Position numbers and translations under genes: made by a program
Notes under the pieces: model-generated
Databases searched by the model: none
Seen by the model: the letters and a program-made list of their open reading frames with translations, nothing else
What the model was told of the DNA's origin: nothing
In this document: one piece after another, positions 1 to 54,891 of the stretch
How the letters are laid out: every line of letters begins with the position of its first letter
Position numbering within the stretch: the first letter of the stretch is position 1
Virus record (IMG/VR): IMGVR_UViG_3300032205_000001
Span: 44,218-108,217 of that record
Direction: 5' to 3' (one strand)
Source: a virus
Lineage: Duplodnaviria > Heunggongvirae > Uroviricota > Caudoviricetes
DNA: 64,000 nt

Positions 1-57
1 AACCGCCTCAGCCTGTGGTGCAGTTGGTTATCGAACCGCCTCAGCCTGTGATGCGGT
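1..57 (+). repeat. 22-nt direct repeat (AACCGCCTCAGCCTGTGgTGC / ...GaTGC), 33-nt period
   Basis: Encodes an EPPQPV peptide repeat at the start of ORF 15..458. Confidence 0.5.
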
Positions 58-458
58 CCGAGCCGCTCGTTCAGATTCGTAAGAAGGCCGACATCTCGCC
101 CAATCCGACCGAGGTTGATCCCGACACTGCACGCAAGCTGCGAGTTCGTGTGCGGCTTGGCGGTGATGTCGATGCGGTTGCCAAGGTGAAGCGGCTGGAC
201 TGCGCCTTCTACGGTGCGTGCCTCGATCAGGCCATTGCGGGCTCGTGGGCTGGCTTCAGCTGCAACAGCTGCACGGCCTATGCGTTGCCCGACAAGGACG
301 AGAAAGAGAGCGACATGCTCGCTCTGAGGGCCATGGACAAGGCATCCGAGATGCTGCACGAGTACGGCAAGGTGATGCGCGTCCGTGGTGTGAAGCCCGG
401 CGCCGATGCCAAGCGTACTACCGAAGAAGAGACCGAGGATTTCGCCGAGGCGATGTAG
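15..458 (+). CDS. hypothetical protein (147 aa; may start upstream of the window)
   Basis: ORF track; the N-terminus is encoded by a 22-nt direct repeat (EPPQPV x2); followed by two hairpin terminators. Confidence 0.45.
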   Translation: MVQLVIEPPQPVMRSEPLVQIRKKADISPNPTEVDPDTARKLRVRVRLGGDVDAVAKVKRLDCAFYGACLDQAIAGSWAGFSCNSCTAYALPDKDEKESDMLALRAMDKASEMLHEYGKVMRVRGVKPGADAKRTTEEETEDFAEAM

Positions 459-18772: not shown

Positions 18773-18951
18773 TGGTCCAAGTCCCTCCCAGGAACGACGA
18801 AAGCCCTTGCGTGGTTCAGTGCAACGGGCAGTACAGCGAGATTTTGCCCTTCAAGGAGGCAAACGAGCTGGCGATGTTCTACGCCGCCAAGGGACAGAAG
18901 GCCTACGTCTTCCGGCTCATTCAAGAGACGATGTATGGAGGGCGCTGATGG
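18769..18951 (+). CDS. hypothetical protein (60 aa)
   Basis: Manual ORF; ATGA overlap. Confidence 0.35.
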
Positions 18952-19463
18952 AGGAGATCGCCTTCACCAAGGTCAAGCTGCCGTACGGCTGGCTGGGCAA
19001 CATGGCTCCGTACCCCATCGTCTACCAGAAGCAGGTCTGGAAGACGTCGGAGGCGCTGTTTCAAGCTCTCCGCTTCGCCGACGAGAGTGCCTCTGAAACC
19101 TCGGAAAGGCGCGCAAAGATTCGCGCAGAAATTATGCTGCTCGGATCGCCCATGGCCGCCAAGATGGCTGCCAAGAAGAACCTCAGCCTGATGACGATCA
19201 CGCCTCGCTCGCCCGAGGACGTCAACAACATGCGCCGGGTGCTTTGCATCAAGCTCAACCAGCACATCGAGCTGGTGAAGCGGCTGCTCGACACCAAGGA
19301 CGCGAACATCGTCGAGGACTGCACGGCACGTCAGAACGAATCAGGCCTGTTCTGGGGCGCTGCCAAGGTCGATGGCAAATGGACCGGACAGAACATGCTC
19401 GGGAAGCTCTGGATGGAAATTCGCTACGAAATGACCAGGGAACTACCAAACGGGGAAGAATGA
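18948..19463 (+). CDS. NADAR (YbiA-like, DUF1768) domain protein
   Basis: YGWLGNMAPYPI...W.TSEALFQALRF matches the NADAR signature; in frame with track ORF 18678..19463. Confidence 0.6.
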   Translation: MEEIAFTKVKLPYGWLGNMAPYPIVYQKQVWKTSEALFQALRFADESASETSERRAKIRAEIMLLGSPMAAKMAAKKNLSLMTITPRSPEDVNNMRRVLCIKLNQHIELVKRLLDTKDANIVEDCTARQNESGLFWGAAKVDGKWTGQNMLGKLWMEIRYEMTRELPNGEE

Positions 19464-22020: not shown

Positions 22021-22725
22021 ATGCGTTTTTACGAAGTTGGCGGCTGTGTTCGTGACCAGCTGATGGGGCTCACGTCGAAGGACGTGGACTTTGCCGTCGA
22101 GGCCGAGTCGTTCGAGGCCATGGAAGCGGAGCTGCGCAAGCGTGGCTTCAAGATTTTTCTGTCGACGCCAGAGTTTCTGACGATTCGCGCACAAGTGCCT
22201 GCACACGAGGAGAAGCTGCGCGCCCGGTCCAAGGATGCCGACTTCGTGCTCTGTCGGAAGGACAGCGCCACCGGGGATGGTCGGCGGCCGGACTTTGTCG
22301 AGCCAGGGACCATCCTGGACGACCTGGCTCGTCGTGACTTCACGATGAACGCCATCGCCGTGGACGTGGAGACGGGCGATATGATCGATCCGCACAACGG
22401 CCGGCACGACATCAAGCAGAACCTCCTCCGGTTCGTCGGTGACCCGTACAAGCGGATCAACGAGGACGGCCTGCGCGTTCTTCGTGGGCTGCGGTTCCTC
22501 ATCACCAAGGGACTGCAGGCCGAGATGGAGACCGGCGATGCCCTCATCAGCTTCGATTCACACAAGATGCTGATGAAGGTGTCGATCGAGCGGGTGCGCG
22601 AGGAGCTGGAGAAGATGTTCAACTACGACACCATCGCGTCGTTGGAGCTTCTCCACGGCTATCCGAACCTGCTTCCGGCCATCTTCCGAGAAGGTCTACG
22701 TCTGGCGCCGACGCTGCGCCAATAG
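22021..22725 (+). CDS. minimal class-II CCA-adding/poly(A)-polymerase-type nucleotidyltransferase (head domain only, 234 aa)
   Basis: GGCVRDQLMG..DVDFAV (GGxVRD, DxD), RRDFTMNA (RRD) and LRVLRGLRFLITKG (RxLRxxRF) motifs; no tRNA-binding body/tail domain. Confidence 0.65.
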   Translation: MRFYEVGGCVRDQLMGLTSKDVDFAVEAESFEAMEAELRKRGFKIFLSTPEFLTIRAQVPAHEEKLRARSKDADFVLCRKDSATGDGRRPDFVEPGTILDDLARRDFTMNAIAVDVETGDMIDPHNGRHDIKQNLLRFVGDPYKRINEDGLRVLRGLRFLITKGLQAEMETGDALISFDSHKMLMKVSIERVREELEKMFNYDTIASLELLHGYPNLLPAIFREGLRLAPTLRQ

Positions 22726-22757
22726 ACAATAGGGCTATTTCGGCGGAGGCTTGGCCT

Positions 22758-23357
22758 ATGAACGAACAGAGCCTGGCCGAACCCATCGCGCTCCACGACC
22801 TGGACGGCAATCTTGCCGACTTCGACAAGAGCATGGCCCATCATCTCGCCGAGCTTCGTGGTCCAACGGAAGATCCGAAGCACGACGAGACGGCCTATGA
22901 GGGTGCGCCGCACATGCGTGCCCGTCGCCGGCTCATCAAGAAGATGCCTGGTTTCTGGCGCAAGCTGGAGCGGCTTAAGGCTGGTTTCGAGCTGCTCCAG
23001 CTCTGTGAGGAGCTGAAGTTCAGCAATCACATTCTCTCGAAGTCTCCGCGCAAGATGCCGCAGGCTGCGGGCGAGAAAATCGAATGGTGCGTCGAGAACG
23101 TTCCACACCTTCCGATCATTCTGTCCGAGGACAAGGGTCTGGTCTACGGCAAGGTGCTCTGCGATGACTGGCCCGAGTACGTGGAGCGTTGGATTCAGTG
23201 GCGTCCTCGTGGCCTGGTGATCTCTGTTGCTCAGCGCTGGAACGAGGGCATCGAGAAGCTCTCACCTGCGGGCAACGTCATTCGCTACACAGGCCCGGAG
23301 ATGCTGCCGGACATCAAGGCTCGCCTGCAGGAGATTCGAGCGAAGTGCCGCCCGTAA
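22758..23357 (+). CDS. HAD-superfamily 5'(3')-deoxyribonucleotidase-like (NT5C family) protein
   Basis: N-terminal LHDLDGNLADFD resembles the NT5C motif MDGVLADFE. Confidence 0.5.
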   Translation: MNEQSLAEPIALHDLDGNLADFDKSMAHHLAELRGPTEDPKHDETAYEGAPHMRARRRLIKKMPGFWRKLERLKAGFELLQLCEELKFSNHILSKSPRKMPQAAGEKIEWCVENVPHLPIILSEDKGLVYGKVLCDDWPEYVERWIQWRPRGLVISVAQRWNEGIEKLSPAGNVIRYTGPEMLPDIKARLQEIRAKCRP

Positions 23358-23470
23358 AGAAGCCAAAGAAGCGCCGGGTCATGTGCTTCAGCTGCGGCAA
23401 GCGGCGCATCAAGTATGTTGACGGCCTCTGTGTGACCTGCCACAAGATCGCAATCTCGGTCTATCCGTAA
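23349..23470 (+). CDS. tiny zinc-ribbon protein (40 aa, GTG start?)
   Basis: CFSCG...CVTCH; in frame with track ORF 23189..23470. Confidence 0.25.
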
Positions 23471-31284: not shown

Positions 31285-31575
31285 TTGCTAGGCATTGATA
31301 TCGCCGTTGGCCTCGCTGTGGTGAGCTTCGTGGCAGTTGGGATTTCCATTATCCGCGCTGCGAGGAAAAAACAGCAAGCGTCTGATCCAGACGCCCAGGC
31401 GAAGTCTGCCCGAAATCAGGGCGCTGAGAATCTCCACCGCATGGAAATCAAAGAGAAGATGCGGTGTGTAAGCTGTGAGGAATTCGTCGATCCTAAGACG
31501 GATTTGTTTGTAAATGGACGGACGTGGTGGCACGAGAGCTGTTACAGAAAGCACGTAATAGGAGATCTAAAATGA
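31285..31575 (+). CDS. membrane protein with C-terminal Cys cluster (96 aa, TTG start)
   Basis: ORF track; hydrophobic N-terminus; overlaps the SPFH gene start (ATGA). Confidence 0.4.
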   Translation: MLGIDIAVGLAVVSFVAVGISIIRAARKKQQASDPDAQAKSARNQGAENLHRMEIKEKMRCVSCEEFVDPKTDLFVNGRTWWHESCYRKHVIGDLK

Positions 31576-32507
31576 GAAATTCTCAGCGCGGCAGCGCAGC
31601 ACCAGCAGTAATTGGGACAATCGTCGGAGTCGTGGCTCTGTCTATCGGCATGGTCACGTGCGCGAAGCTGGAAAAGGTTCACCCAGGACACGTTGGTGTA
31701 TCCGTCAAGAAGTGCAGCGGGGGTGGTGTTTCGCCAGACCCGATTCCGACCGGCTACTACTGGCGTGAGTTGTTCTGTGAGGACGTCGTCGAGTACCCCA
31801 TCTCGATGCAGAGTCTCATCCTCACCAAGAACCCGCATGAAGGAACCGGCGGCACGAGCGGCAACGAGACAGATCAGTCCATCACCGTGACGTCGTCGGA
31901 GGGTCTCGGCATCGAAGTCGATGTGGCGCTGAATTTCACGCTCGACGCCAAGAAGGTTCCAGAGATCTACTCGAAGTGGCGCGACAACATCGAGAATATC
32001 GAACACAAGTACATCCGCCAGACCATCCGCGAGGGCCTGCAGGACATCTTCGCCAAGTACACGGCCGAGGAACTGTACTCGACGAAGAAAGAGACGGCTC
32101 GTGCTGAGGTCCAGACGTTCCTGGAAGGCAAGTTGACGCCGTTCGGGTTCATCATCTCTCAGTTCACGATCAATCGCATTGAGCCGCCAGCTCAGGTCAT
32201 TCAGGCCATCAACGCCAAGGTTGCGATGGTGCAGCAGGCCCAGCAGAGCGCTCAAGAGGTCAAGAAGAAGGAAGCGGAGGCGAACCAGCAGGTTGCTGTC
32301 GCAAAGGGCAAGGCTGACGCGATGAAGGCCGAAGCCGAGGGCGAGGCAGCTGCTATTACTCTCAGAGCCGATGCGCAGGCGAAGGCCAACAGGATCTTGG
32401 CCGAGTCAGTAACGCCGCAGCTGATCCAGTACCAGCAGGCGCTCAAGTGGGACGGCAAGCTACCGACGATGACCGGCGGTGCTGTTCCAATGATTCAAAT
32501 GAAGTAG
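31572..32507 (+). CDS. SPFH/Band-7 (HflK/C, stomatin-like) membrane protein
   Basis: TM helix followed by a Band-7 core and an Ala/Gln/Lys-rich coiled-coil tail; Met17 of track ORF 31524..32507. Confidence 0.65.
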   Translation: MRNSQRGSAAPAVIGTIVGVVALSIGMVTCAKLEKVHPGHVGVSVKKCSGGGVSPDPIPTGYYWRELFCEDVVEYPISMQSLILTKNPHEGTGGTSGNETDQSITVTSSEGLGIEVDVALNFTLDAKKVPEIYSKWRDNIENIEHKYIRQTIREGLQDIFAKYTAEELYSTKKETARAEVQTFLEGKLTPFGFIISQFTINRIEPPAQVIQAINAKVAMVQQAQQSAQEVKKKEAEANQQVAVAKGKADAMKAEAEGEAAAITLRADAQAKANRILAESVTPQLIQYQQALKWDGKLPTMTGGAVPMIQMK

Positions 32508-47518: not shown

Positions 47519-48448
47519 CTACAAAGTCGTTCGATCTACTGCGAAATCGCAGAAGATGTAGTCGACAAACACATCAACCGTTTGTCCAGTCGCAACCCAC
47601 ATGTTCATGCTTGGCAGCAAAGATCCGAACTGCGCGGTTGAGTCTGTTGCCACGAGCGTTCCGTCGATATACCACTGCGTAAGCGGTCCGGCTGGATCGC
47701 ATACAACTTTGAATACGTGCGGATGAAAATTGAGATTGTCGATAGCGACGCCCGTATCGTGCTGAATCAGGCTATCAACCCCTCCGCCTGCGTTGCCTGT
47801 GAGAGCCCACCAATGATTATTGCCGAAGGCATCCTTGTTGATGCCAAACCCAAGTAGATTCCATCGGCTGGAGAAACCAGAAGCTGGTTGGGTATATTGT
47901 CCAAACGCAAGACCTACGTGCGGAGGACTTCCGCTTGCTTCATCGTCGCCTTGCCATGAGAGACGAAATTCGAGTGTGAGTACGCCTTGCGTGATGTCGT
48001 TAGCGATCTCGCCAAGAATTGGGCCAGCAGGGTCTACGTGACCAGTGACCGGCGCGATGTCAACATACACTTCAACAGCGCCACCGGCTGAATCGACGCG
48101 AAAACGCAAAACGCCGATCGGGGTTTTCGCCCAACCGTTTGGGCCAGAAAAAGATGAATCGACAAGTTTGACTTCAGTTGACGACCCAGGCGTGATCACC
48201 TGCATATTCGACGTCGCGTTATTGATGAAGTCTTCCATCCATGTGAAGCGAGCTGGCGTTGTTCCGCCGCCTCCTCCACTGGCGCCAGTGAGCTGGTCGA
48301 TAGTCCCATCGCTTCGTCGTGCAAACAGATGCGTGACGCCAGATGCTAACTTGGCATAGAGCTGTACCTGATCCACGATCGCGGCTGGATCTGTAGTTTG
48401 TCGCAGGAACTTTGCGATTCCAGCGCCAGCTCGACGAAATAAGCTCAC
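47519..48448 (-). CDS. tail-fibre/receptor-binding protein with ConA-like lectin (LamG-type) C-terminal domain
   Basis: N-terminal Gly-rich stretch (GASGGGGG); C-terminal W..G/LAFG/WWALTG/WYIDG/VDYIF jelly-roll pattern. Confidence 0.5.
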   Translation of the reverse strand: MSLFRRAGAGIAKFLRQTTDPAAIVDQVQLYAKLASGVTHLFARRSDGTIDQLTGASGGGGGTTPARFTWMEDFINNATSNMQVITPGSSTEVKLVDSSFSGPNGWAKTPIGVLRFRVDSAGGAVEVYVDIAPVTGHVDPAGPILGEIANDITQGVLTLEFRLSWQGDDEASGSPPHVGLAFGQYTQPASGFSSRWNLLGFGINKDAFGNNHWWALTGNAGGGVDSLIQHDTGVAIDNLNFHPHVFKVVCDPAGPLTQWYIDGTLVATDSTAQFGSLLPSMNMWVATGQTVDVFVDYIFCDFAVDRTTL

Positions 48449-49053
48449 GGTCCCTCCAGCATTTCAAGCCACGCTTCGAGATCGGTGGTGTTTGGCAAAA
48501 AGCCAGACGTGGTTGTTAGCTGAACTCCGATTAGATCCCCGGCAATGTACGTATCGATACCAGGAGCCTGTGTAGCGTTGCCACCAGTGCCAGTGGTGTG
48601 GACGACCGACAGCGTTCCTGGTGAACCGTTTTTAGTAACCCTCACCGTCAGCGTGCCAGCGGTAATTGCCTGAGTGAGCCTGGTGCCGAGGCCGGTGATT
48701 GATCCGGCCCTGATCATCTTCACTGTATCGAAGCTGGTAGAAACCAAGGCTGACAGAGCCACGCCGGTTTGATTAGCGGCAACATTTGCTTGCGCCCATA
48801 GCTCAGGCATGGTCTCGACTCCTTGAACTTCAACAGGAACAGTGATGATGATCTCCTGTCCAATGACATTTGAGACGACGATGTCCGTGAGTGGCCCAGG
48901 TCCAAGGTATGCCACGCCGGCTGCATCCACAAATGCTGTGCTCCAATAGACAACCCGAGCCAACGTTGTGTCGTTAGCTCGCATCCGGTAAGTGACGCCA
49001 CTTACTGGTCCGAGGTCGATGCCCTCGGTTGTTAATGGAACAGCACTGCTCAT
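48445..49053 (-). CDS. tail-fibre-associated structural protein (202 aa)
   Basis: Thr/Gly/Ser-rich beta-type composition; overlaps its neighbours by 4 nt. Confidence 0.45.
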   Translation of the reverse strand: MSSAVPLTTEGIDLGPVSGVTYRMRANDTTLARVVYWSTAFVDAAGVAYLGPGPLTDIVVSNVIGQEIIITVPVEVQGVETMPELWAQANVAANQTGVALSALVSTSFDTVKMIRAGSITGLGTRLTQAITAGTLTVRVTKNGSPGTLSVVHTTGTGGNATQAPGIDTYIAGDLIGVQLTTTSGFLPNTTDLEAWLEMLEGP

Positions 49054-50468
49054 AGCTCTTTGGCGTATTCGTATGTTTTGAGCGTTCCGTCCGTGTTGTA
49101 CGTGGCGGTAACGCGGAAGCGCTCAACCTCTCCGTGGGCTCCGTCGGCATCACTATCCGAAGCTGTGTCTGCCGTCGCTTTGTTGGCGAAGACGCGCATA
49201 CGGCAGCTCGTCATCTTTCCGGTCACATCGTAGACGTACTTGTCGTTAAACGAGTTGGCCTTGATCTGACCGCCCGGACCTTGGCCAACGGCTGTGATGA
49301 CGGCAAGTCCGCCAACTGCGCCAGCGACACCTGTAGCGCCAGCTGGAATTGTGGCTACGCCAGTTAGGACCTGATAAACGGTCGTGCCGTCTGGGATGGC
49401 GCCTGTCGCCCACGGCACGTAGAACGTTGCGATCTTCGTGGTGCCGTTGTAGGTCTTGCATTGCCTGCTCTGACCCGAGCCGGCGCCTGCGCTCAGCTGG
49501 AACCATACATCTTTGTAGATGTCGTCGGTCGACGAGTCATTTGCCCGAAGGGTCATTGTATTAGAGCCGCCAGCCTGTGCGAGGCCTTCATCAAGCAGGC
49601 TGTTGGACGCCCCAACGATCTCAAAGACCGACGTACCGTCTGGTTGTGTGCCCCAGTTACGGTTGACCGTAGCCATCTTGTTGGAACCCGCGTACGAGGC
49701 GATGAACCTAGATTGGTTAGATCCTGTGCCACCAATGATGGAGATTAGAGAACGAGAATAGGTGCCATCTACGGATGAGGCGCCTGCATCGAGCTGGATC
49801 TGGTTGATGCCGTTTCCAGCGCCTTGTGCTGTTCCAGTTCTGATTGCGTTGGTCGCAAGACCGCCCATGCTGCCAGCGTTGACATTCGGCAAGGCCGTTA
49901 GGCCAGCACGAACCGAATCTGTGAACTTATTGAGTGCAATCACGTCGAGAACGAGATCGTCTCGCGTCAATGCATTCGTCGCAGCGATTTCCATCGGAGC
50001 CTTGCCAAAGGTATCCGTATGCGAAGCTGTGATGGCAAGGTCATACCAGCCAAGGCCAGTATCAGTTACGGTTGGCGTGATCGTGGAAAAGACGACCTGG
50101 TTGGACTTCTTCAGCTTGATCGTAAACGCCGATGGGGCGATGCCTGGAAACCCAAGTCCGGTCGCACCATCGCGCATGAACACGCTGACGGTTGTGGCGG
50201 TGTTCTGCAGGACTTGAACGACAGTCATAGGGGTCTCCAGATCGGGCAGAAACCCGGAATTGAACGTGCGTGACCAGGCGCCTTGGCGGTTTTGAGAGAA
50301 TGGAAAGAAGTAAGGGTTACCGGAGCTGACAAGCGACGCAAAGCTCGCTTTCGAAAACGATCCAAAATAGACGGTCTCGACTGGCATCAACGATGCGAAG
50401 CTCGCATGGGAGAAGTTGCCGAAGAACGGACCAGAGACCGTCGTAAGACTGCCAGTACGTGCCGTCAT
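49050..50468 (-). CDS. tail-fibre protein (472 aa, Gly/Thr/Ala-rich)
   Basis: Low-complexity G/T/A/S-rich composition typical of fibre shafts. Confidence 0.5.
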   Translation of the reverse strand: MTARTGSLTTVSGPFFGNFSHASFASLMPVETVYFGSFSKASFASLVSSGNPYFFPFSQNRQGAWSRTFNSGFLPDLETPMTVVQVLQNTATTVSVFMRDGATGLGFPGIAPSAFTIKLKKSNQVVFSTITPTVTDTGLGWYDLAITASHTDTFGKAPMEIAATNALTRDDLVLDVIALNKFTDSVRAGLTALPNVNAGSMGGLATNAIRTGTAQGAGNGINQIQLDAGASSVDGTYSRSLISIIGGTGSNQSRFIASYAGSNKMATVNRNWGTQPDGTSVFEIVGASNSLLDEGLAQAGGSNTMTLRANDSSTDDIYKDVWFQLSAGAGSGQSRQCKTYNGTTKIATFYVPWATGAIPDGTTVYQVLTGVATIPAGATGVAGAVGGLAVITAVGQGPGGQIKANSFNDKYVYDVTGKMTSCRMRVFANKATADTASDSDADGAHGEVERFRVTATYNTDGTLKTYEYAKEL

Positions 50469-51451
50469 GCGACCGCCGGCCAGGTAACGCCATCCCAGGG
50501 ATGGATTCCGGTGCCCATGAATACATGGGTGAAGTCTCCGAGTGCGTCGCCCTGCGACGGGATCACATTCCAGAAGCCATACCAGCAGTCGATTCGATTT
50601 CCGACCTTGCCGGCAGCGTTATTTGTTGAGGAAGCCCATCCAACAGGAACGATGATTGCTCCCATTCCTTGCAGATCGTTGGCGTACGGGTTGCTGAAGC
50701 TGTTCAGATACCCTTCGCCACAACCGCCAACGGCAACCGAGTTGATACCGTTGATGCGGGCAACTCCACCGTTAACTCCTGGGCTCGATCCTCCGACGAC
50801 GCTGCCTACACTTGCTGTTGAAATCGTCGAATTGCTTGCACCCCATCCCACCACAGTCGGAGAAAAACCGACGCCAGGCGTCAGAACGCCTACGGTGTTA
50901 CAGAATTCCAGCCCCCATGAGAATGACATTGTGGTGGCTCGGTAGACAAAAACACGGAATAGTTTCTTGTCTGTTGTGGCCATCGCATGCCAGACGCGAT
51001 CGAGCGACGCTGTGGCGTTGATCAGCGACTGAGCTGAGGCCATCACCTGTTCATCAGTTGCAGTCGGTTGCTGGTTTGATGTGCCAGCTGGCGTGAATAA
51101 TCCGCCCGGAGAGAACGAGATGCGTGCGACGTCATCCGTGTTGCCCTGATAGGTCAACAGGAGATCGCAGCCGTTGCCATCGGTCAGTACTGCGAAAGAC
51201 TGAGCTGCGCCAGCGATCGATGCTCTGGTCGTGACATTGGAGAATGTTGTCCATCGATCTGTATGATCAGATCCGCTGGTTGGACCCGTCGTGCCGTTGC
51301 ACGTGTACTTGACCGTGTACCCCATCGTCGCAACGAGGAAGTTCTTCACGCCGAATAGCAAACGCGCCATCGTGTCATTCAGCGACACAAATGAGATCCG
51401 ATTGTTCGGACTGAACAACCACGAATGCGTGACAGGCGGTAGATGCTGCAT
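50465..51451 (-). CDS. tail-fibre/receptor-binding paralogue A (328 aa)
   Basis: Shares an N-terminal 70-aa module (W.FS.NNRISFVSLNDTMARLLFG.KNFLV.T.GYTVKY.C.GTTGPTS..DHTDRW) and C-terminal module with the 51458 and 52830 genes. Confidence 0.5.
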   Translation of the reverse strand: MQHLPPVTHSWLFSPNNRISFVSLNDTMARLLFGVKNFLVATMGYTVKYTCNGTTGPTSGSDHTDRWTTFSNVTTRASIAGAAQSFAVLTDGNGCDLLLTYQGNTDDVARISFSPGGLFTPAGTSNQQPTATDEQVMASAQSLINATASLDRVWHAMATTDKKLFRVFVYRATTMSFSWGLEFCNTVGVLTPGVGFSPTVVGWGASNSTISTASVGSVVGGSSPGVNGGVARINGINSVAVGGCGEGYLNSFSNPYANDLQGMGAIIVPVGWASSTNNAAGKVGNRIDCWYGFWNVIPSQGDALGDFTHVFMGTGIHPWDGVTWPAVA

Positions 51452-51457
51452 CTTGAT

Positions 51458-52825
51458 CTACGAAAGGATAACAGGACCGCCATTCCACGGATGGATGGCC
51501 GTTGCAAGCAACACCCATTGAGAAGTGCCGAAAACGTTTCCTTGCCCGGCGCCGAATGCCCAGGCGGCGTAGCAATCGATTCGATCTCCGATTTTGCCCT
51601 GAAAGTTGGTGGTGCTTGAATAGAGACCTAACTGGGTAATTGGTGTGGCAGCTTCTAGATCTAGATTGGCCTCAGCCCAGATACCAATGAGGTTGGTTGA
51701 GTTTCCGAAATTATATCCACCACCGTTGGCGGGGATGTTTGAGCCAGAGAGACGTATACATCCTCCGGCTCCGTTGCCGACGCCGCCACTAATGATCAAC
51801 ACATGGCCGTTGGTGCCGCTGCTCAGGGTGGAGTTATTCGTTGCCCAGCCATACACCTTGGAAAGCCAAGTAAATGCAGTAATCGAGGAGTTGCATGCCT
51901 CAAGACCACCCCATCCGATCATCGCGTTTTGACGGTAGACAAAGAACCGGAATCCTTGTTTGTCTGTCGTGGCCATGATGTGCCAGATACGATCGCCGCT
52001 AGTCGTGGCGTTGATGACGGTACCTGTATTGCCAAAGCCTGACGAAGCCACGAAAATATCCGTAGAGTCGGTAGCGGTTGGCTGGTTGGTTGGCGTTCCA
52101 GCAGGTACGTATTTGGCTCCGTCGGAGAACGCAAAATAACATTTGTCGTCTGTGGTTCCCTGGTATGCGAGCAGAATGTCGACGCCAGATCCGCCGGTCA
52201 GCGTTGCTGTAGCAAACGATGCGTTTGCAGCTGTCTCCGTTGTCGCGATCGTATTGCCGTTGGGGCCACCTGTAATCGCAGTAAGACTGAGCGTGCTGGC
52301 GCCAGACGTTGCCGTGACGAACGTATTCGCCGTGGTAGCTGCCGCGTAGACCGTTCCAGATCCAGCGCCGAGGATGATTGCGTTGGCGAGGTTCGCCAAC
52401 GAGTTGGCAGCCGTAGCTCCGATGAGCACATTTCCATCGACGTTCGTGAGAACGGTTTGGAACGTGTACGTCTTTGTTCCTGTGGTGACCGTTTCGCCGT
52501 TGCTAAAGTTCGCCGTGGTGGTCAGCGTGCCGGTCGCTTGAACTGCGGTGTTCGAATCTGTGAGCACTATAAAAGACTGTGGGTTACCTGCGGCTGCTCC
52601 ACGTGTGGTGCAAGATGAGAAGCTCAACCAGCGATCTGTGTGATCGTTTGCTGACGTTGGACCCGTTGTGCCGTCACAGGAATATTTCACCGTGTAGCCA
52701 ACCGTGCCAACGAGGAAGTTTTTGATTCCGAAAAGCAACCTCGCCATCGTATCGTTCAACGACACGAACGAGATCCGGTTGTTTGTCGAGAACAGCCATG
52801 ACTTTTGGAGTGCTGGTAGGGTCAT
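51458..52825 (-). CDS. tail-fibre/receptor-binding paralogue B (455 aa, expanded central region)
   Basis: Same conserved termini; about 130 aa of extra Thr/Ala/Gly-rich central repeats. Confidence 0.5.
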   Translation of the reverse strand: MTLPALQKSWLFSTNNRISFVSLNDTMARLLFGIKNFLVGTVGYTVKYSCDGTTGPTSANDHTDRWLSFSSCTTRGAAAGNPQSFIVLTDSNTAVQATGTLTTTANFSNGETVTTGTKTYTFQTVLTNVDGNVLIGATAANSLANLANAIILGAGSGTVYAAATTANTFVTATSGASTLSLTAITGGPNGNTIATTETAANASFATATLTGGSGVDILLAYQGTTDDKCYFAFSDGAKYVPAGTPTNQPTATDSTDIFVASSGFGNTGTVINATTSGDRIWHIMATTDKQGFRFFVYRQNAMIGWGGLEACNSSITAFTWLSKVYGWATNNSTLSSGTNGHVLIISGGVGNGAGGCIRLSGSNIPANGGGYNFGNSTNLIGIWAEANLDLEAATPITQLGLYSSTTNFQGKIGDRIDCYAAWAFGAGQGNVFGTSQWVLLATAIHPWNGGPVILS

Positions 52826-52829
52826 ATGT

Positions 52830-53795
52830 TCACGCGATTACCGGTGTTGTGGTGCCGTCCCACGGTAGAATGTAAGAGCCGAGCCAAGCGAACTGAAGCG
52901 ATCCAAAGGTATCGCCCTGTCCAAAGTTGTTCCCAGCTGGACTGCCCCAACAGTCAATTCGATCGCATACACGACCAAACAGATTGGCTGTGTTGTTGTT
53001 GAAATACCCAGTAGGCACAATCGGCGAAAATGCCTGAAGCTCAGGTTGAGCAACGCTGATGTTCCAGGTTCCCTCGCCGCATCCAGTCATTTCGACGTTA
53101 GTTGCCGAGATGCGGGCGAAGCCTCGCTGGTTGGAGGCTGAATTTCCGAGCGGGCCACCGTTAGAGGTAAAGGTAGTTCCGCTTGATGCCCAGCCAACTA
53201 CAGTCGGAGACCACACGAAGCTCGCAAGCATGTTTGGCTCGCGCACAACTTGTTCCACGCCAAAGCCGTAAAGGAATGTGCTGCTGCGGAAGATTTGGGT
53301 TCGGAAGATCTTCTTGTCGGTCGACGCCTGGATGCTCCAAACACGGTCGAGCGTTGCTGTGGCGTTGATGATCGTGATCGCGCTCAGAATGATCGCTTCA
53401 TCAGTGGCTGTTGGCTGTTGGTTCGATGTGCCGGCTGGCGTGAACAGACCGCCGTTCGAAAACGAAATGCGTGCGATGTCATCAGAGGCGCCTTGGTACG
53501 TAAGCATGATGTCAACGCCGTTTCCGTCTGTGAGCACGGCGAATGACTGAGCAGTGGTTGCGTTGGCTCCTCGTGTGGTGGCGTTCGAGAAGGTTGACCA
53601 ACGATCGGTATGGTCGGCGCCACTCGTAGGCCCGGTCGTACCATCGCACGTGTACTTGACCGTGTACCCCATCGTTGCGACCAAGAAGTTTTTGATGCCG
53701 AAGAGGTACCTCGCCATCGTGTCGTTCAGCGACACGAATGAAATCCGGTTGTTGTTGCTGAAGCTGTAGGTTTTGACAAGTGTCGGTAGAGGCAT
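52830..53795 (-). CDS. tail-fibre/receptor-binding paralogue C (321 aa)
   Basis: Same conserved termini. Confidence 0.5.
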   Translation of the reverse strand: MPLPTLVKTYSFSNNNRISFVSLNDTMARYLFGIKNFLVATMGYTVKYTCDGTTGPTSGADHTDRWSTFSNATTRGANATTAQSFAVLTDGNGVDIMLTYQGASDDIARISFSNGGLFTPAGTSNQQPTATDEAIILSAITIINATATLDRVWSIQASTDKKIFRTQIFRSSTFLYGFGVEQVVREPNMLASFVWSPTVVGWASSGTTFTSNGGPLGNSASNQRGFARISATNVEMTGCGEGTWNISVAQPELQAFSPIVPTGYFNNNTANLFGRVCDRIDCWGSPAGNNFGQGDTFGSLQFAWLGSYILPWDGTTTPVIA

Positions 53796-54047: not shown

Positions 54048-54377
54048 ATGAAGATGCTTGCTACGATGACTGAACCAGCCGAATTCACTGACCAGGCCCC
54101 AGCAGTTGTAGGCCTCCAAAGCAACAGTGCGCAAACGCTTGCGTCCAAGATTGCCGACCACTTCGGCGAGGCGCTGACGAGTCTCTTCGGCCACGACCCG
54201 GTGTGCGACTTCCTGATCAACTCGATCAGGGACCACATCGAGGAGTGTGGCGTCGACGTCGACTACAACGCTGCTGAGCTTCGCGAGAAGCTCGCTGACG
54301 TCTCGAACCTCTGCATGAAGCTCCACAACGTCGCGGGCAACATCAACCCACGTCGGTCAAATCAAAGCGTGGCTTGA
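54048..54377 (+). CDS. hypothetical protein (109 aa)
   Basis: ORF track; TTGACA-N17-TTAAGT promoter at 53963-53991; its 3' end overlaps the DHFR 3' end. Confidence 0.4.
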   Translation: MKMLATMTEPAEFTDQAPAVVGLQSNSAQTLASKIADHFGEALTSLFGHDPVCDFLINSIRDHIEECGVDVDYNAAELREKLADVSNLCMKLHNVAGNINPRRSNQSVA

Positions 54378-54891
54378 CGAAGAATTCGTCCTGGTCCTTC
54401 AGGGTCCAGCGCTCCATGCGGAAGTCGATTCCATCTTCGCTTCCAGTCTTGAGCACAGAGTCCAACTTGAATCTGTGTTCGTACGGTGGGAAAAATACAT
54501 CGCAGGTGTAGACGCCACTGACCTTCGTGATGATCAATTCTGAGCACTGGGGATGCTCGACGGCCATTGCGTAGACTTCGCCACCACCGATGACGAACGC
54601 CTTGCCAGCAGGCCACTGCAGGGCTTCGTCAAGGTTTGCCGCTGGTGTTGTTCCAGAGAAATTTACGCCGCTGCGGGATAGGACGATGTTGATCCTGTTC
54701 GGCAGCGGCCTGAACTTGGGCGGAATCGAGTCCCAGGTTTTTCTGCCCATGATGACGGTGTTCAGCTCTGAACCCTCCGTCGTCAGCTCGCGGAAGTGCT
54801 TCATGTCCTCTTTGAGGCGCCATGAAAGGCCGTTGGCCTTGCCGATGCCACGCGCCTCATCGTGTGCGACGACGATCGTGAACCGCTGCAT
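54343..54891 (-). CDS. folA: dihydrofolate reductase
   Basis: IVAHDEARGIGKANGLSWRL...VIMGRKTWDSIP...PLPNRINIVLSR...VIGGGEVY is the classic DHFR signature. Confidence 0.8.
   Translation of the reverse strand: MQRFTIVVAHDEARGIGKANGLSWRLKEDMKHFRELTTEGSELNTVIMGRKTWDSIPPKFRPLPNRINIVLSRSGVNFSGTTPAANLDEALQWPAGKAFVIGGGEVYAMAVEHPQCSELIITKVSGVYTCDVFFPPYEHRFKLDSVLKTGSEDGIDFRMERWTLKDQDEFFVKPRFDLTDVG

What the first reader, a model, noticed from the sequence alone, without database searches (positions are those of the whole stretch)
22021..23470. Minimal CCA/poly(A)-type nucleotidyltransferase head domain next to an NT5C-like deoxyribonucleotidase and a zinc ribbon
The 234-aa protein carries all the head-domain motifs of class-II tRNA nucleotidyltransferases (GGxVRD, DxD, RRD, RxLRxxRF) but lacks the about 200-aa body and tail that bind tRNA. 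It is followed by an NT5C-family HAD nucleotidase and a 40-aa CxxC protein, so together with DHFR the window encodes nucleotide-pool enzymes. A truncated CCA-type enzyme in a phage could repair tRNA 3' ends damaged by host anticodon or acceptor nucleases. It could also be a template-independent tailing enzyme or a nucleotide-signal synthase; minimal NTases of this superfamily occur in toxin-antitoxin and signalling systems.
Basis: partly seen in the sequence, partly recalled or inferred. Interest (0 to 1): 0.6.

Follow-up and report, generated by a model that had tools for sequence, protein, structure and literature searches.

The report
Short phage tRNA CCA-adding enzyme gene
This phage gene encodes a half-length version of the enzyme that builds or repairs the CCA end of tRNAs; hundreds of phages carry the same short form, so it is an ordinary member of a known but biochemically untested phage family, and its two neighbours are not a conserved module with it.

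Summary
ORF 22021-22725 (+) encodes a 234-aa class-II nucleotidyltransferase with motifs GGCVRD, DVD, RRD and EDGLRVLRGLRF. It covers the head and neck domains only; the body and tail are absent.

This is not a truncation accident. More than 300 clusters (50% identity) of relatives are almost all 225-265 aa. They come from phage or large uncultured contigs and are already annotated "tRNA nucleotidyltransferase" (PHROG 24229; cyanophages B23 gp209 and S-CBWM1 gp17). The best cellular matches found are 32-41% identical and 397-822 aa.

Sequence, profile and fold comparisons all place it nearest to CCA-adding enzymes. Poly(A) polymerase scores lower, and cyclic-nucleotide synthases do not match.

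In related phages the gene sits beside tRNA gene arrays, of which 89% lack an encoded CCA, or beside RNA end-healing enzymes (Pnkp, HD-Pnk). The most likely function is CCA addition or repair on tRNA 3' ends. Activity is untested.

The NT5C-like phosphatase stays adjacent only in the 75%-identical relative. The zinc-ribbon ORF is not conserved even there. DHFR lies 31 kb away on the other strand.

Verdict: new member of a known kind, modest interest.

The parts
22021..22725 (+). Gene for a 234-aa class-II nucleotidyltransferase with head and neck domains only (short phage tRNA nucleotidyltransferase family)
   Evidence: PF01743 E 2e-24. PHROG 24229 E 4.5e-49. PDB profile match to CCA-adding enzymes at E 5e-45. 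AlphaFold2 model with mean pLDDT 95.5. The 46 best Foldseek matches are all class-II CCA-, A- or CC-adding enzymes or poly(A) polymerases.
22039..22089 (+). Motif A, residues 7-23: GGCVRD...DVD with the two catalytic aspartates D21 and D23
   Evidence: Aligns to 1MIV D40 and D42. G7, G8, R11, D12, D21 and D23 are invariant in 49 family members.
22258..22296 (+). Flexible loop, residues 80-92 (KDSATGDGRRPDF), full length
   Evidence: Aligns without gaps to the loop of 1MIV and the Planococcus enzyme. It is the only region of lower model confidence, with mean pLDDT 73 for residues 81-90.
22330..22338 (+). Motif B, RRD (residues 104-106)
   Evidence: Invariant in the family. Aligns to 1MIV R110, R111 and D112.
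22462..22497 (+). Motif D, EDGLRVLRGLRF (residues 148-159), the EDxxR amino-acid template for CTP/ATP
   Evidence: Aligns to 1MIV E153, D154 and R157. D149, R152, R155 and R158 are invariant.
22681..22704 (+). C-terminal family motif IFREGLRL (residues 221-228), which ends the protein where canonical enzymes continue into the body domain
   Evidence: F222, R223 and L226 are invariant among 19 relatives of 55-100% identity. Modelled at pLDDT 93. A role as a cap on the neck is inference.
22758..23357 (+). Neighbouring gene: 199-aa NT5C-like HAD phosphatase, with the nucleophile motif DLDGN at residues 14-18 and DD at 136-137. It is listed as context only, because a functional link is not supported.
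   Evidence: PF06941 E 3.6e-10. PDB 2JAO E 3.6e-5. Adjacency is kept only in L088/L089, the 75% relative.
23381..23470 (+). Neighbouring small ORF: a 29-aa CxxC-x12-CxxC zinc-ribbon-like peptide, or 41 aa if it starts at GTG 23345. It is listed as context only.
   Evidence: Called as 29 aa in three public assemblies. No family match. No homologue in any of the 91 loci held at that point, other than copies of the same phage. Ten other CxxC...CxxC stretches lie on the + strand of the window.

Best explanation
The gene encodes an active, template-independent tRNA nucleotidyltransferase of a phage-specific short form.

What is shown:
- It has the complete catalytic head and neck of class-II CCA-adding enzymes. 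These carry two metal-binding aspartates, the RRD ribose sensor, a full-length flexible loop and the EDxxR template that selects CTP and ATP.
- It ends in a conserved short C-terminal motif instead of the body and tail.

What is inferred:
- It adds or restores C, C and A at the 3' end of tRNAs.
- Its substrates are phage-encoded tRNAs whose genes lack CCA, and/or tRNAs whose 3' ends have been trimmed or damaged in the infected cell.
- It binds the acceptor end through the head and neck alone, without anchoring the tRNA elbow.

The NT5C-like phosphatase and the zinc-ribbon ORF downstream are most likely independent early-region genes that happen to be adjacent in this phage lineage.
For: Sequence and fold:
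- The motifs are intact and invariant across the family.
- The AlphaFold2 model is confident (mean pLDDT 95.5). Its 46 best PDB neighbours are all class-II tRNA nucleotidyltransferases or poly(A) polymerases, with TM 0.73-0.80 on the query.
- CCA-adding enzymes score higher than poly(A) polymerase. In the PDB profile search the scores are 157 versus 100 bits. In NCBIfam, PRK13299 scores 127 bits, pcnB 89 bits and the A-adding model 35 bits.
- The flexible loop aligns without a deletion.

The short length is selected for:
- 323 clusters at 50% identity match at E <= 1e-30. Almost all of the 150 listed are 225-265 aa.
- The top 120 clusters at 90% identity are 213-265 aa.
- The ORFs in 80 IMG/VR loci are 204-282 aa.

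Context in 36 lineages (clusters at 70% identity):
- tRNA genes lie within 10 kb in 16 lineages, within 3 kb in 10 and within 1 kb in 6. Arrays reach 27 genes.
- 114 of 128 such tRNA genes lack an encoded CCA.
- S-CBWM1 gp17 (248 aa) lies about 0.6 kb upstream of a run of 21 annotated tRNA genes.
- T4-type Pnkp or HD-Pnk end-healing enzymes lie within 10 kb in 7 lineages.

Published work (PMC7824862) lists CCA-adding enzymes as a common RNA-end-restoring function of large phages.
Against: - No enzyme of the short form was found to have been assayed in the searched literature.
- The C-terminal region that anchors the tRNA elbow in canonical enzymes (PMC7730189) is absent.
- The short family is not more basic than the equivalent part of cellular enzymes, with median net charge -5 versus -7. 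No compensating RNA-binding surface is therefore evident.
- In this phage there is no tRNA gene, Rfam RNA, Pnkp or ligase in the 64-kb window.
- There are no tRNA genes within 10 kb in relatives of 67-75% identity.
- The rest of the genome could not be read.
- The protein scores below the curated cut-offs of every NCBIfam CCA equivalog.
Confidence: 0.7

Rival explanations
1. It is a general RNA 3'-tailing enzyme, similar to poly(A) or poly(C,A) polymerases. Having lost the body and tail that restrict canonical enzymes to tRNA and to three additions, it would tail host or phage transcripts to alter their stability.
For: Head and neck are shared with bacterial poly(A) polymerase I, which matches at PDB E 1e-27 and pcnB 89 bits. 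There is a weak PF12627 'PolyA_pol_RNAbd' match. The elbow-binding domain is absent. No tRNA genes lie in this window.
Against: CCA-adding enzymes score consistently higher. The EDxxR template and full flexible loop typical of CCA-adding enzymes are kept. Family members lie next to tRNA arrays and RNA end-healing genes.
Confidence: 0.12
2. It is a partial-activity tRNA enzyme, either A-adding only or CC-adding only. It would complement the host enzyme or repair only the terminal A76.
For: Class-II enzymes with split activities share the same head and neck, and A-adding and CC-adding structures are among the fold matches (1VFG, 4WC2, 3WFR). Removal of the C-terminal region is known to change specificity in A-adding enzymes (Tretbar et al. 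2011, cited in PMC7730189).
Against: The flexible loop has no deletion of the kind reported for CC-adding enzymes (Neuenfeldt et al. 2008, cited). The A-adding NCBIfam model scores only 35 bits. Most neighbouring phage tRNA genes lack all three nucleotides.
Confidence: 0.1
3. It forms a functional three-gene module. In this reading the nucleotidyltransferase, the NT5C-like phosphatase and the zinc-ribbon peptide act together in nucleotide-pool control or as a complex.
For: The genes are tightly packed on one strand, with a 32-nt gap and then a 23-nt gap or a 13-nt overlap. The nucleotidyltransferase-NT5C pair is kept in the 75% relative. In other lineages a different HAD phosphatase (Pnkp) sits directly downstream of the nucleotidyltransferase.
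Against: NT5C is absent beside the nucleotidyltransferase in the 72%, 68%, 67% and 60% relatives and in 80 IMG/VR loci. The zinc-ribbon ORF has no homologue outside this phage. It is one of 11 such stretches on the + strand of the window. The NT5C-like protein shows no similarity to Pnkp phosphatases.
Confidence: 0.06
4. It is a nucleotide second-messenger synthase, or a minimal nucleotidyltransferase of the toxin-antitoxin type (MNT, MenT/AbiEii-like).
For: Only the shared polymerase-beta-like core fold.
Against: Foldseek gives E >= 0.05 and TM 0.22-0.24 for CD-NTases, against E 1e-14 for CCA enzymes. The class-II-specific motifs B, D and E and the neck domain are all present.
Confidence: 0.02

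Closest known systems
Short phage 'tRNA nucleotidyltransferase' family (PHROG 24229). Examples are Synechococcus phage B23 gp209 (243 aa), S-CBWM1 gp17 (248 aa), and the annotated genes of Arthrobacter phages such as Atuin and Racecar and Microbacterium phages such as Big4 and Zooman.
   Same: Same head-plus-neck architecture and length, and the same motifs. Identity is 41-51% over the full length.
   Different: The closest cultured relative is only 51% identical. Unlike S-CBWM1, there is no adjacent tRNA array here. The NT5C-like neighbour is specific to this lineage.
Canonical class-II CCA-adding enzymes (B. stearothermophilus 1MIV, Planococcus halocryophilus 6IBP, human TRNT1 4X4W)
   Same: Motifs A-E, the flexible loop, the EDxxR template, and the head and neck fold (TM 0.73-0.77 on the query).
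   Different: It lacks the roughly 170-230-aa body and tail that bind the tRNA elbow. It scores below the curated family cut-offs. It ends in a family-specific FRxGLxL motif.
Full-length phage tRNA nucleotidyltransferases (PHROG 2244; Salmonella phage SE5, 422 aa, with an HD domain as in the E. coli enzyme)
   Same: Homologous head and neck (33% identity).
   Different: SE5 keeps a C-terminal half containing an HD motif. The window protein has none, and no homologue of that half is encoded elsewhere in the window.
Bacterial poly(A) polymerase I (PcnB; 3AQK-3AQN)
   Same: Homologous head and neck.
   Different: Lower scores than CCA enzymes. PcnB has a C-terminal RNA-binding region that is absent here.
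Phage RNA repair cassettes (T4 Pnkp plus ligase; HD-Pnk end-healing enzymes)
   Same: In 7 of 36 related lineages the short nucleotidyltransferase lies within 10 kb of such genes.
   Different: No Pnkp, HD-Pnk or ligase homologue is detectable in this window.

Membership tests
Class-II nucleotidyltransferases (Pfam PF01743 PolyA_pol head) | Profile score above the Pfam gathering threshold | tested here: met
   86.7 bits against a cut-off of 23, E 2e-24
Class-II nucleotidyltransferases (Pfam PF01743 PolyA_pol head) | Motif A GGxVRD...DxD with two catalytic aspartates, and motif B RRD | tested here: met
   GGCVRD 7-12, DVD 21-23 and RRD 104-106. These align to 1MIV D40, D42 and R110-D112 and are invariant in 49 relatives.
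Class-II nucleotidyltransferases (Pfam PF01743 PolyA_pol head) | Motif D EDxxR nucleotide template in the neck domain | tested here: met
   E148, D149 and R152 align to 1MIV E153, D154 and R157
Canonical CCA-adding enzyme (NCBIfam equivalogs PRK13299, PRK10885, TIGR02692) | Whole-protein score at or above the curated cut-off | tested here: not met
   127 bits against a cut-off of 290 (PRK13299), 89 against 451 (PRK10885) and 93 against 439 (TIGR02692)
Canonical CCA-adding enzyme (NCBIfam equivalogs PRK13299, PRK10885, TIGR02692) | Body and tail domains that bind the tRNA acceptor/T arm and elbow | tested here: not met
   The alignment ends at residue 204 of 404 (1MIV) and 255 of 420 (6IBP). 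TM normalised on the target is only 0.45. A C-terminal profile built from 74 cellular enzymes finds nothing in the window (best E 0.81).
Canonical CCA-adding enzyme (NCBIfam equivalogs PRK13299, PRK10885, TIGR02692) | Addition of exactly C-C-A to tRNA 3' ends | not testable with these tools
   Needs an enzyme assay or a complementation test
Short phage tRNA nucleotidyltransferase family (PHROG 24229) | Profile match over nearly the whole profile, with a protein length of about 225-265 aa | tested here: met
   E 4.5e-49, protein residues 2-212 on profile positions 5-217 of 245.
Short phage tRNA nucleotidyltransferase family (PHROG 24229) | Found in viruses rather than in cells | tested here: met
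   490 phage records match. The best 80 matches among the 600 stretches read from species-representative genomes are 32-41% identical and 397-822 aa.
Bacterial poly(A) polymerase PcnB (TIGR01942, PRK11623) | Whole-protein score at or above the curated cut-off | tested here: not met
   89 bits against a cut-off of 306, and 58 against 702
CD-NTase / cyclic-oligonucleotide synthases | Fold similarity to solved CdnE/cGAS-like enzymes | tested here: not met
   Best E 0.055, TM 0.24, rmsd above 14 A
NT5C 5'(3')-deoxyribonucleotidases (neighbouring gene 22758-23357) | PF06941 score above the cut-off, plus the HAD motifs DxDG and DD | tested here: met
   40.5 bits against a cut-off of 24.8. DLDGN at residues 14-18 and DD at residues 136-137 align to 2JAO. 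Substrate was not tested.

The most novel reading that the evidence does not exclude
The head-plus-neck enzyme is a naturally minimal class-II tRNA nucleotidyltransferase that works without any elbow anchor. In this phage lineage it would be paired with the co-transcribed NT5C-type HAD phosphatase as a two-protein unit that heals and then rebuilds tRNA 3' ends. The phosphatase would remove a 3'-phosphate or 2',3'-cyclic phosphate left by a host nuclease, and the nucleotidyltransferase would then restore CCA. This would be a split analogue of the E. coli CCA enzyme with its HD phosphatase domain. It would parallel the nucleotidyltransferase-Pnkp and nucleotidyltransferase-HD-Pnk pairs seen in other phage lineages, and it would act as a counter-defence against nucleases that target tRNA 3' ends.
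Probability: 0.08. Interest if true: 0.6.

Novelty: new member of a known kind. Interest (0 to 1): 0.3.

Why it matters
For this window, the result settles an annotation. The gene is a phage tRNA nucleotidyltransferase of the common short type. It is not a new signalling or toxin enzyme, and it is not part of a nucleotide-pool operon.

More generally, the survey shows three things:
- The short form is a large family whose length is under selection. No close relative turned up among the cellular genomes scanned.
- It tends to sit beside tRNA arrays that lack CCA and beside RNA end-healing genes.
- It has apparently never been assayed.

A natural enzyme that keeps the whole catalytic core but no elbow-binding domain would be a convenient test of two questions. 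How much do the body and tail contribute to tRNA recognition? How much do they contribute to stopping after three nucleotides? Cultured phages that carry it make that test practical (S-CBWM1, B23, and the Arthrobacter and Microbacterium phages).

Tried and rejected
1. **Truncation or frameshift artefact.** Rejected. The NT5C-like gene starts 32 nt after the stop codon. Relatives from hundreds of contigs have the same length.

2. **Body and tail supplied in trans by another gene.**
   - A profile of the C-terminal halves of 74 cellular enzymes, and the C-terminal half of the phage SE5 enzyme, find nothing in the window.
   - Apart from shadow ORFs on the opposite strand of the gene itself, no neighbour is present in more than half of the related loci.

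3. **Compensation by a more basic surface.** Net charge is -5 (family median) against -7 for the equivalent part of cellular enzymes, so this was uninformative.

4. **tRNA genes of this phage.**
   - The window has no tRNA genes and no Rfam match.
   - Attempts to read beyond the window failed. Two exact-pattern scans found nothing. Three look-ups returned no record or no DNA.

5. **Literature.** Four searches found no biochemical study of a short phage CCA enzyme.

6. **Long 'fusion' proteins of 478-2190 aa that contain the domain**. They carry unrelated GNAT, topoisomerase I or L5 gp82 domains. I read them as merged gene calls, not as real architectures.

7. **Complex with the zinc-ribbon neighbour.** This could not be predicted, because the tool folds single chains only.
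Full report
**What is at the coordinates**

The window carries three tightly packed genes on the + strand.
- ORF 22021-22725 encodes 234 aa from an ATG start.
- ORF 22758-23357 encodes 199 aa and has a GGAGG ribosome-binding site 8 nt upstream.
- A small ORF ends at 23470. It encodes 29 aa from ATG 23381. It would encode 41 aa from GTG 23345, which has a GGAG 11 nt upstream.

Public assemblies of the same phage call the 234-, 199- and 29-aa products. The ORFs on the opposite strand that overlap 22021-22725 have no support and are shadows.

**Identity of the 234-aa protein**

The protein matches the Pfam PolyA_pol head domain at E 2e-24 over residues 4-137. It weakly matches PF12627 over residues 182-213.

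- GGCVRD at residues 7-12
- DVD at 21-23
- RRD at 104-106
- EDGLRVLRGLRF at 148-159

A profile of 49 relatives aligns to the B. stearothermophilus CCA-adding enzyme 1MIV. D21 and D23 fall on D40 and D42. RRD falls on R110-D112. E148, D149 and R152 fall on E153, D154 and R157. The flexible loop between motifs A and B aligns without gaps.

The alignment stops at residue 204 of 404 in 1MIV and at 255 of 420 in the Planococcus enzyme. The protein is therefore head plus neck, and the body and tail are absent.

An AlphaFold2 model is confident, with mean pLDDT 95.5. Only the flexible loop dips, to 73.

The 46 best Foldseek matches in the PDB are all class-II CCA-, A- or CC-adding enzymes or poly(A) polymerase. 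TM is 0.73-0.80 on the query and about 0.45 on the targets. Cyclic-dinucleotide synthases appear only at E 0.05 with TM 0.24.

CCA-adding enzymes score above poly(A) polymerase in every comparison. The protein stays below the curated cut-offs of all NCBIfam CCA equivalogs because half of the profile is unmatched.

**The short form is a family, not an accident**

- PHROGs has a 245-position family, phrog_24229 "tRNA nucleotidyltransferase". The protein matches it at E 4.5e-49.
- tblastn finds 490 phage records. The closest is Synechococcus phage B23 gp209, 243 aa and 51% identical, annotated as CCA tRNA nucleotidyltransferase. Arthrobacter, Microbacterium, S-CBWM1 and Cellulophaga phages follow.
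- In the 5.8-billion-protein collection, the top 120 clusters are 213-265 aa.
- In the exhaustive search of 50%-identity representatives, 323 clusters match at E <= 1e-30. Nearly all of the 150 listed are 225-265 aa.
- The few 478-2190-aa exceptions carry unrelated domains and look like merged gene calls.
- In 80 IMG/VR loci the ORFs are 204-282 aa.
- In species-representative bacterial and archaeal genomes, the best 80 matches are only 32-41% identical and 397-822 aa, with a median of 464 aa.
- Close relatives share an invariant C-terminal F222-R223-x-x-L226 motif. It is modelled with high confidence. I infer that it closes the neck where the body domain would begin.
- Full-length phage enzymes also exist. 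One example is Salmonella phage SE5, 422 aa with an HD motif.

**What the family does, judged from context**

I grouped the related loci into 36 lineages at 70% identity of the enzyme.
- tRNA genes lie within 10 kb in 16 lineages, within 3 kb in 10 and within 1 kb in 6. Arrays reach 27 genes.
- S-CBWM1 gp17 lies about 0.6 kb upstream of a run of 21 annotated tRNA genes.
- Of 128 such phage tRNA genes, 114 (89%) do not encode CCA.
- T4-type polynucleotide kinase-phosphatase lies within 10 kb in 5 lineages, often directly downstream. Fusions of an HD phosphoesterase with a polynucleotide kinase occur in two more.

These associations fit an enzyme that completes or repairs tRNA 3' ends. A comparative review of jumbo phages makes the same assignment for phage CCA-adding enzymes (PMC7824862).

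I found no paper that assays a short form.

Work on nematode enzymes shows two relevant points (PMC7730189). The C-terminal part normally holds the tRNA elbow. Changes in the catalytic core can compensate when that contact is lost. An enzyme without an anchor is therefore plausible but unproven.

**What is specific to this window**

Context here is silent.
- There are no tRNA genes and no Rfam matches in the 64 kb.
- There is no homologue of Pnkp, HD-Pnk or ligase.
- There is no separate gene resembling a body/tail or HD half.
- Relatives of 67-75% identity have no tRNA genes within 10 kb of the gene.
- The source contig extends about 88 kb beyond the window's left end (coordinates), but I could not retrieve it. 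Whether this phage carries tRNA genes remains open.

**The neighbours**

The 199-aa protein is a divergent NT5C-type HAD phosphatase.
- PF06941 matches at E 3.6e-10, and 2JAO at E 3.6e-5. The nucleophile motif DLDGN and the DD motif are present.
- Only three phage records hold a homologue.
- It stays next to the nucleotidyltransferase in the 75%-identical relative (L088, L089).
- It is absent beside the gene in the 72%, 68%, 67% and 60% relatives and in all 80 IMG/VR loci.

The zinc-ribbon ORF has no homologue outside copies of this phage. It is one of 11 CxxC...CxxC stretches on the + strand of the window.

DHFR is real, but it lies 31 kb away on the other strand.

The three genes therefore look like neighbours by descent in an early-region array of small genes, not a functional unit. 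One caveat remains. HAD or HD phosphatases of other families recur next to this enzyme in other lineages. A healing role for the NT5C-like protein therefore cannot be excluded, and I rate it as unlikely (about 0.08).

**Verdict**

The tRNA-end reading is the best supported, with confidence 0.7 for an active C/A-adding tRNA 3'-end enzyme. The readings as an operon, a signal synthase or a toxin are not supported.

The gene is a new member of a known, widely annotated phage family. Its only wider interest is that this natural head-plus-neck form has not been characterised biochemically.

Noticed in passing
window 18948-19463 (+): A NADAR-domain gene (PF08719 E 1e-15) lies 2.5 kb upstream of the nucleotidyltransferase. 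It gives a below-cut-off match to NCBIfam NF053876 'NADAR family anti-phage protein'. A 69%-identical copy also lies near the nucleotidyltransferase in the 75% relative (L088 7076-7597). It could be a counter-defence enzyme that reverses ADP-ribosylation.
   Followed up: partly
window about 14000-44000 (+): A long same-strand array of small, tightly packed or overlapping ORFs, mostly without family matches. Eleven CxxC...CxxC mini zinc-ribbon stretches lie on the + strand of the window (16799 to 55975). This looks like an early or host-takeover region.
   Followed up: partly
window 54343-54891 (-): A dihydrofolate reductase gene (PF00186 E 9e-36), on the opposite strand and 31 kb from the finding. 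It lies just past a block of large minus-strand ORFs (47519-53795) that have no Pfam or PHROG match.
   Followed up: partly
L014 13562-14683 and L020 18160-19068: Two phage lineages carry fusions of an HD phosphoesterase with a P-loop polynucleotide kinase (one as HD-kinase, the other as kinase-HD). These lie 3-8 kb from the short nucleotidyltransferase. A profile of cellular CCA-enzyme C-termini picked them up, presumably through the HD part.
   Followed up: partly
L035 7634-9022 (and 20 similar loci): A conserved 462-aa ORF with no Pfam match lies about 1 kb upstream of the nucleotidyltransferase in one large, closely related phage lineage. An ATP-dependent ligase-like gene and a T4-type Pnkp are in the same cluster. 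It could be an unrecognised RNA ligase.
   Followed up: no
proteins P0121, P0124, P0128, P0123 (representative library): 'Proteins' of 617-2190 aa hold the short nucleotidyltransferase domain internally at 55-59% identity, together with GNAT, topoisomerase I or L5 gp82 domains. They are probably neighbouring phage genes merged by gene calling, possibly in genomes with a reassigned stop codon.
   Followed up: partly
L084 (ENA ERZ27287755 k119_494514, 531 kb; the same protein also lies on a 938-kb contig): A 60%-identical short nucleotidyltransferase (P0078) sits on contigs of 0.5-0.9 Mb, at least one from a marine Tara sample. The surrounding genes are mostly unannotated and on one strand, and a tRNA-Met gene lies 1.7 kb downstream. 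This could be a very large phage or a giant virus.
   Followed up: no
window 31524-32507 (+): A Band_7/SPFH-family protein (PF01145 in the public gene call; PHROG 200 'lipoprotein' at E 7e-64), encoded in the same early-region array.
   Followed up: no
window 1-60 (+): A direct repeat of AACCGCCTCAGCCTGTG occurs twice within the first 50 bases. It lies inside ORF 15-458 and encodes a repeated PPQPV peptide.
   Followed up: no
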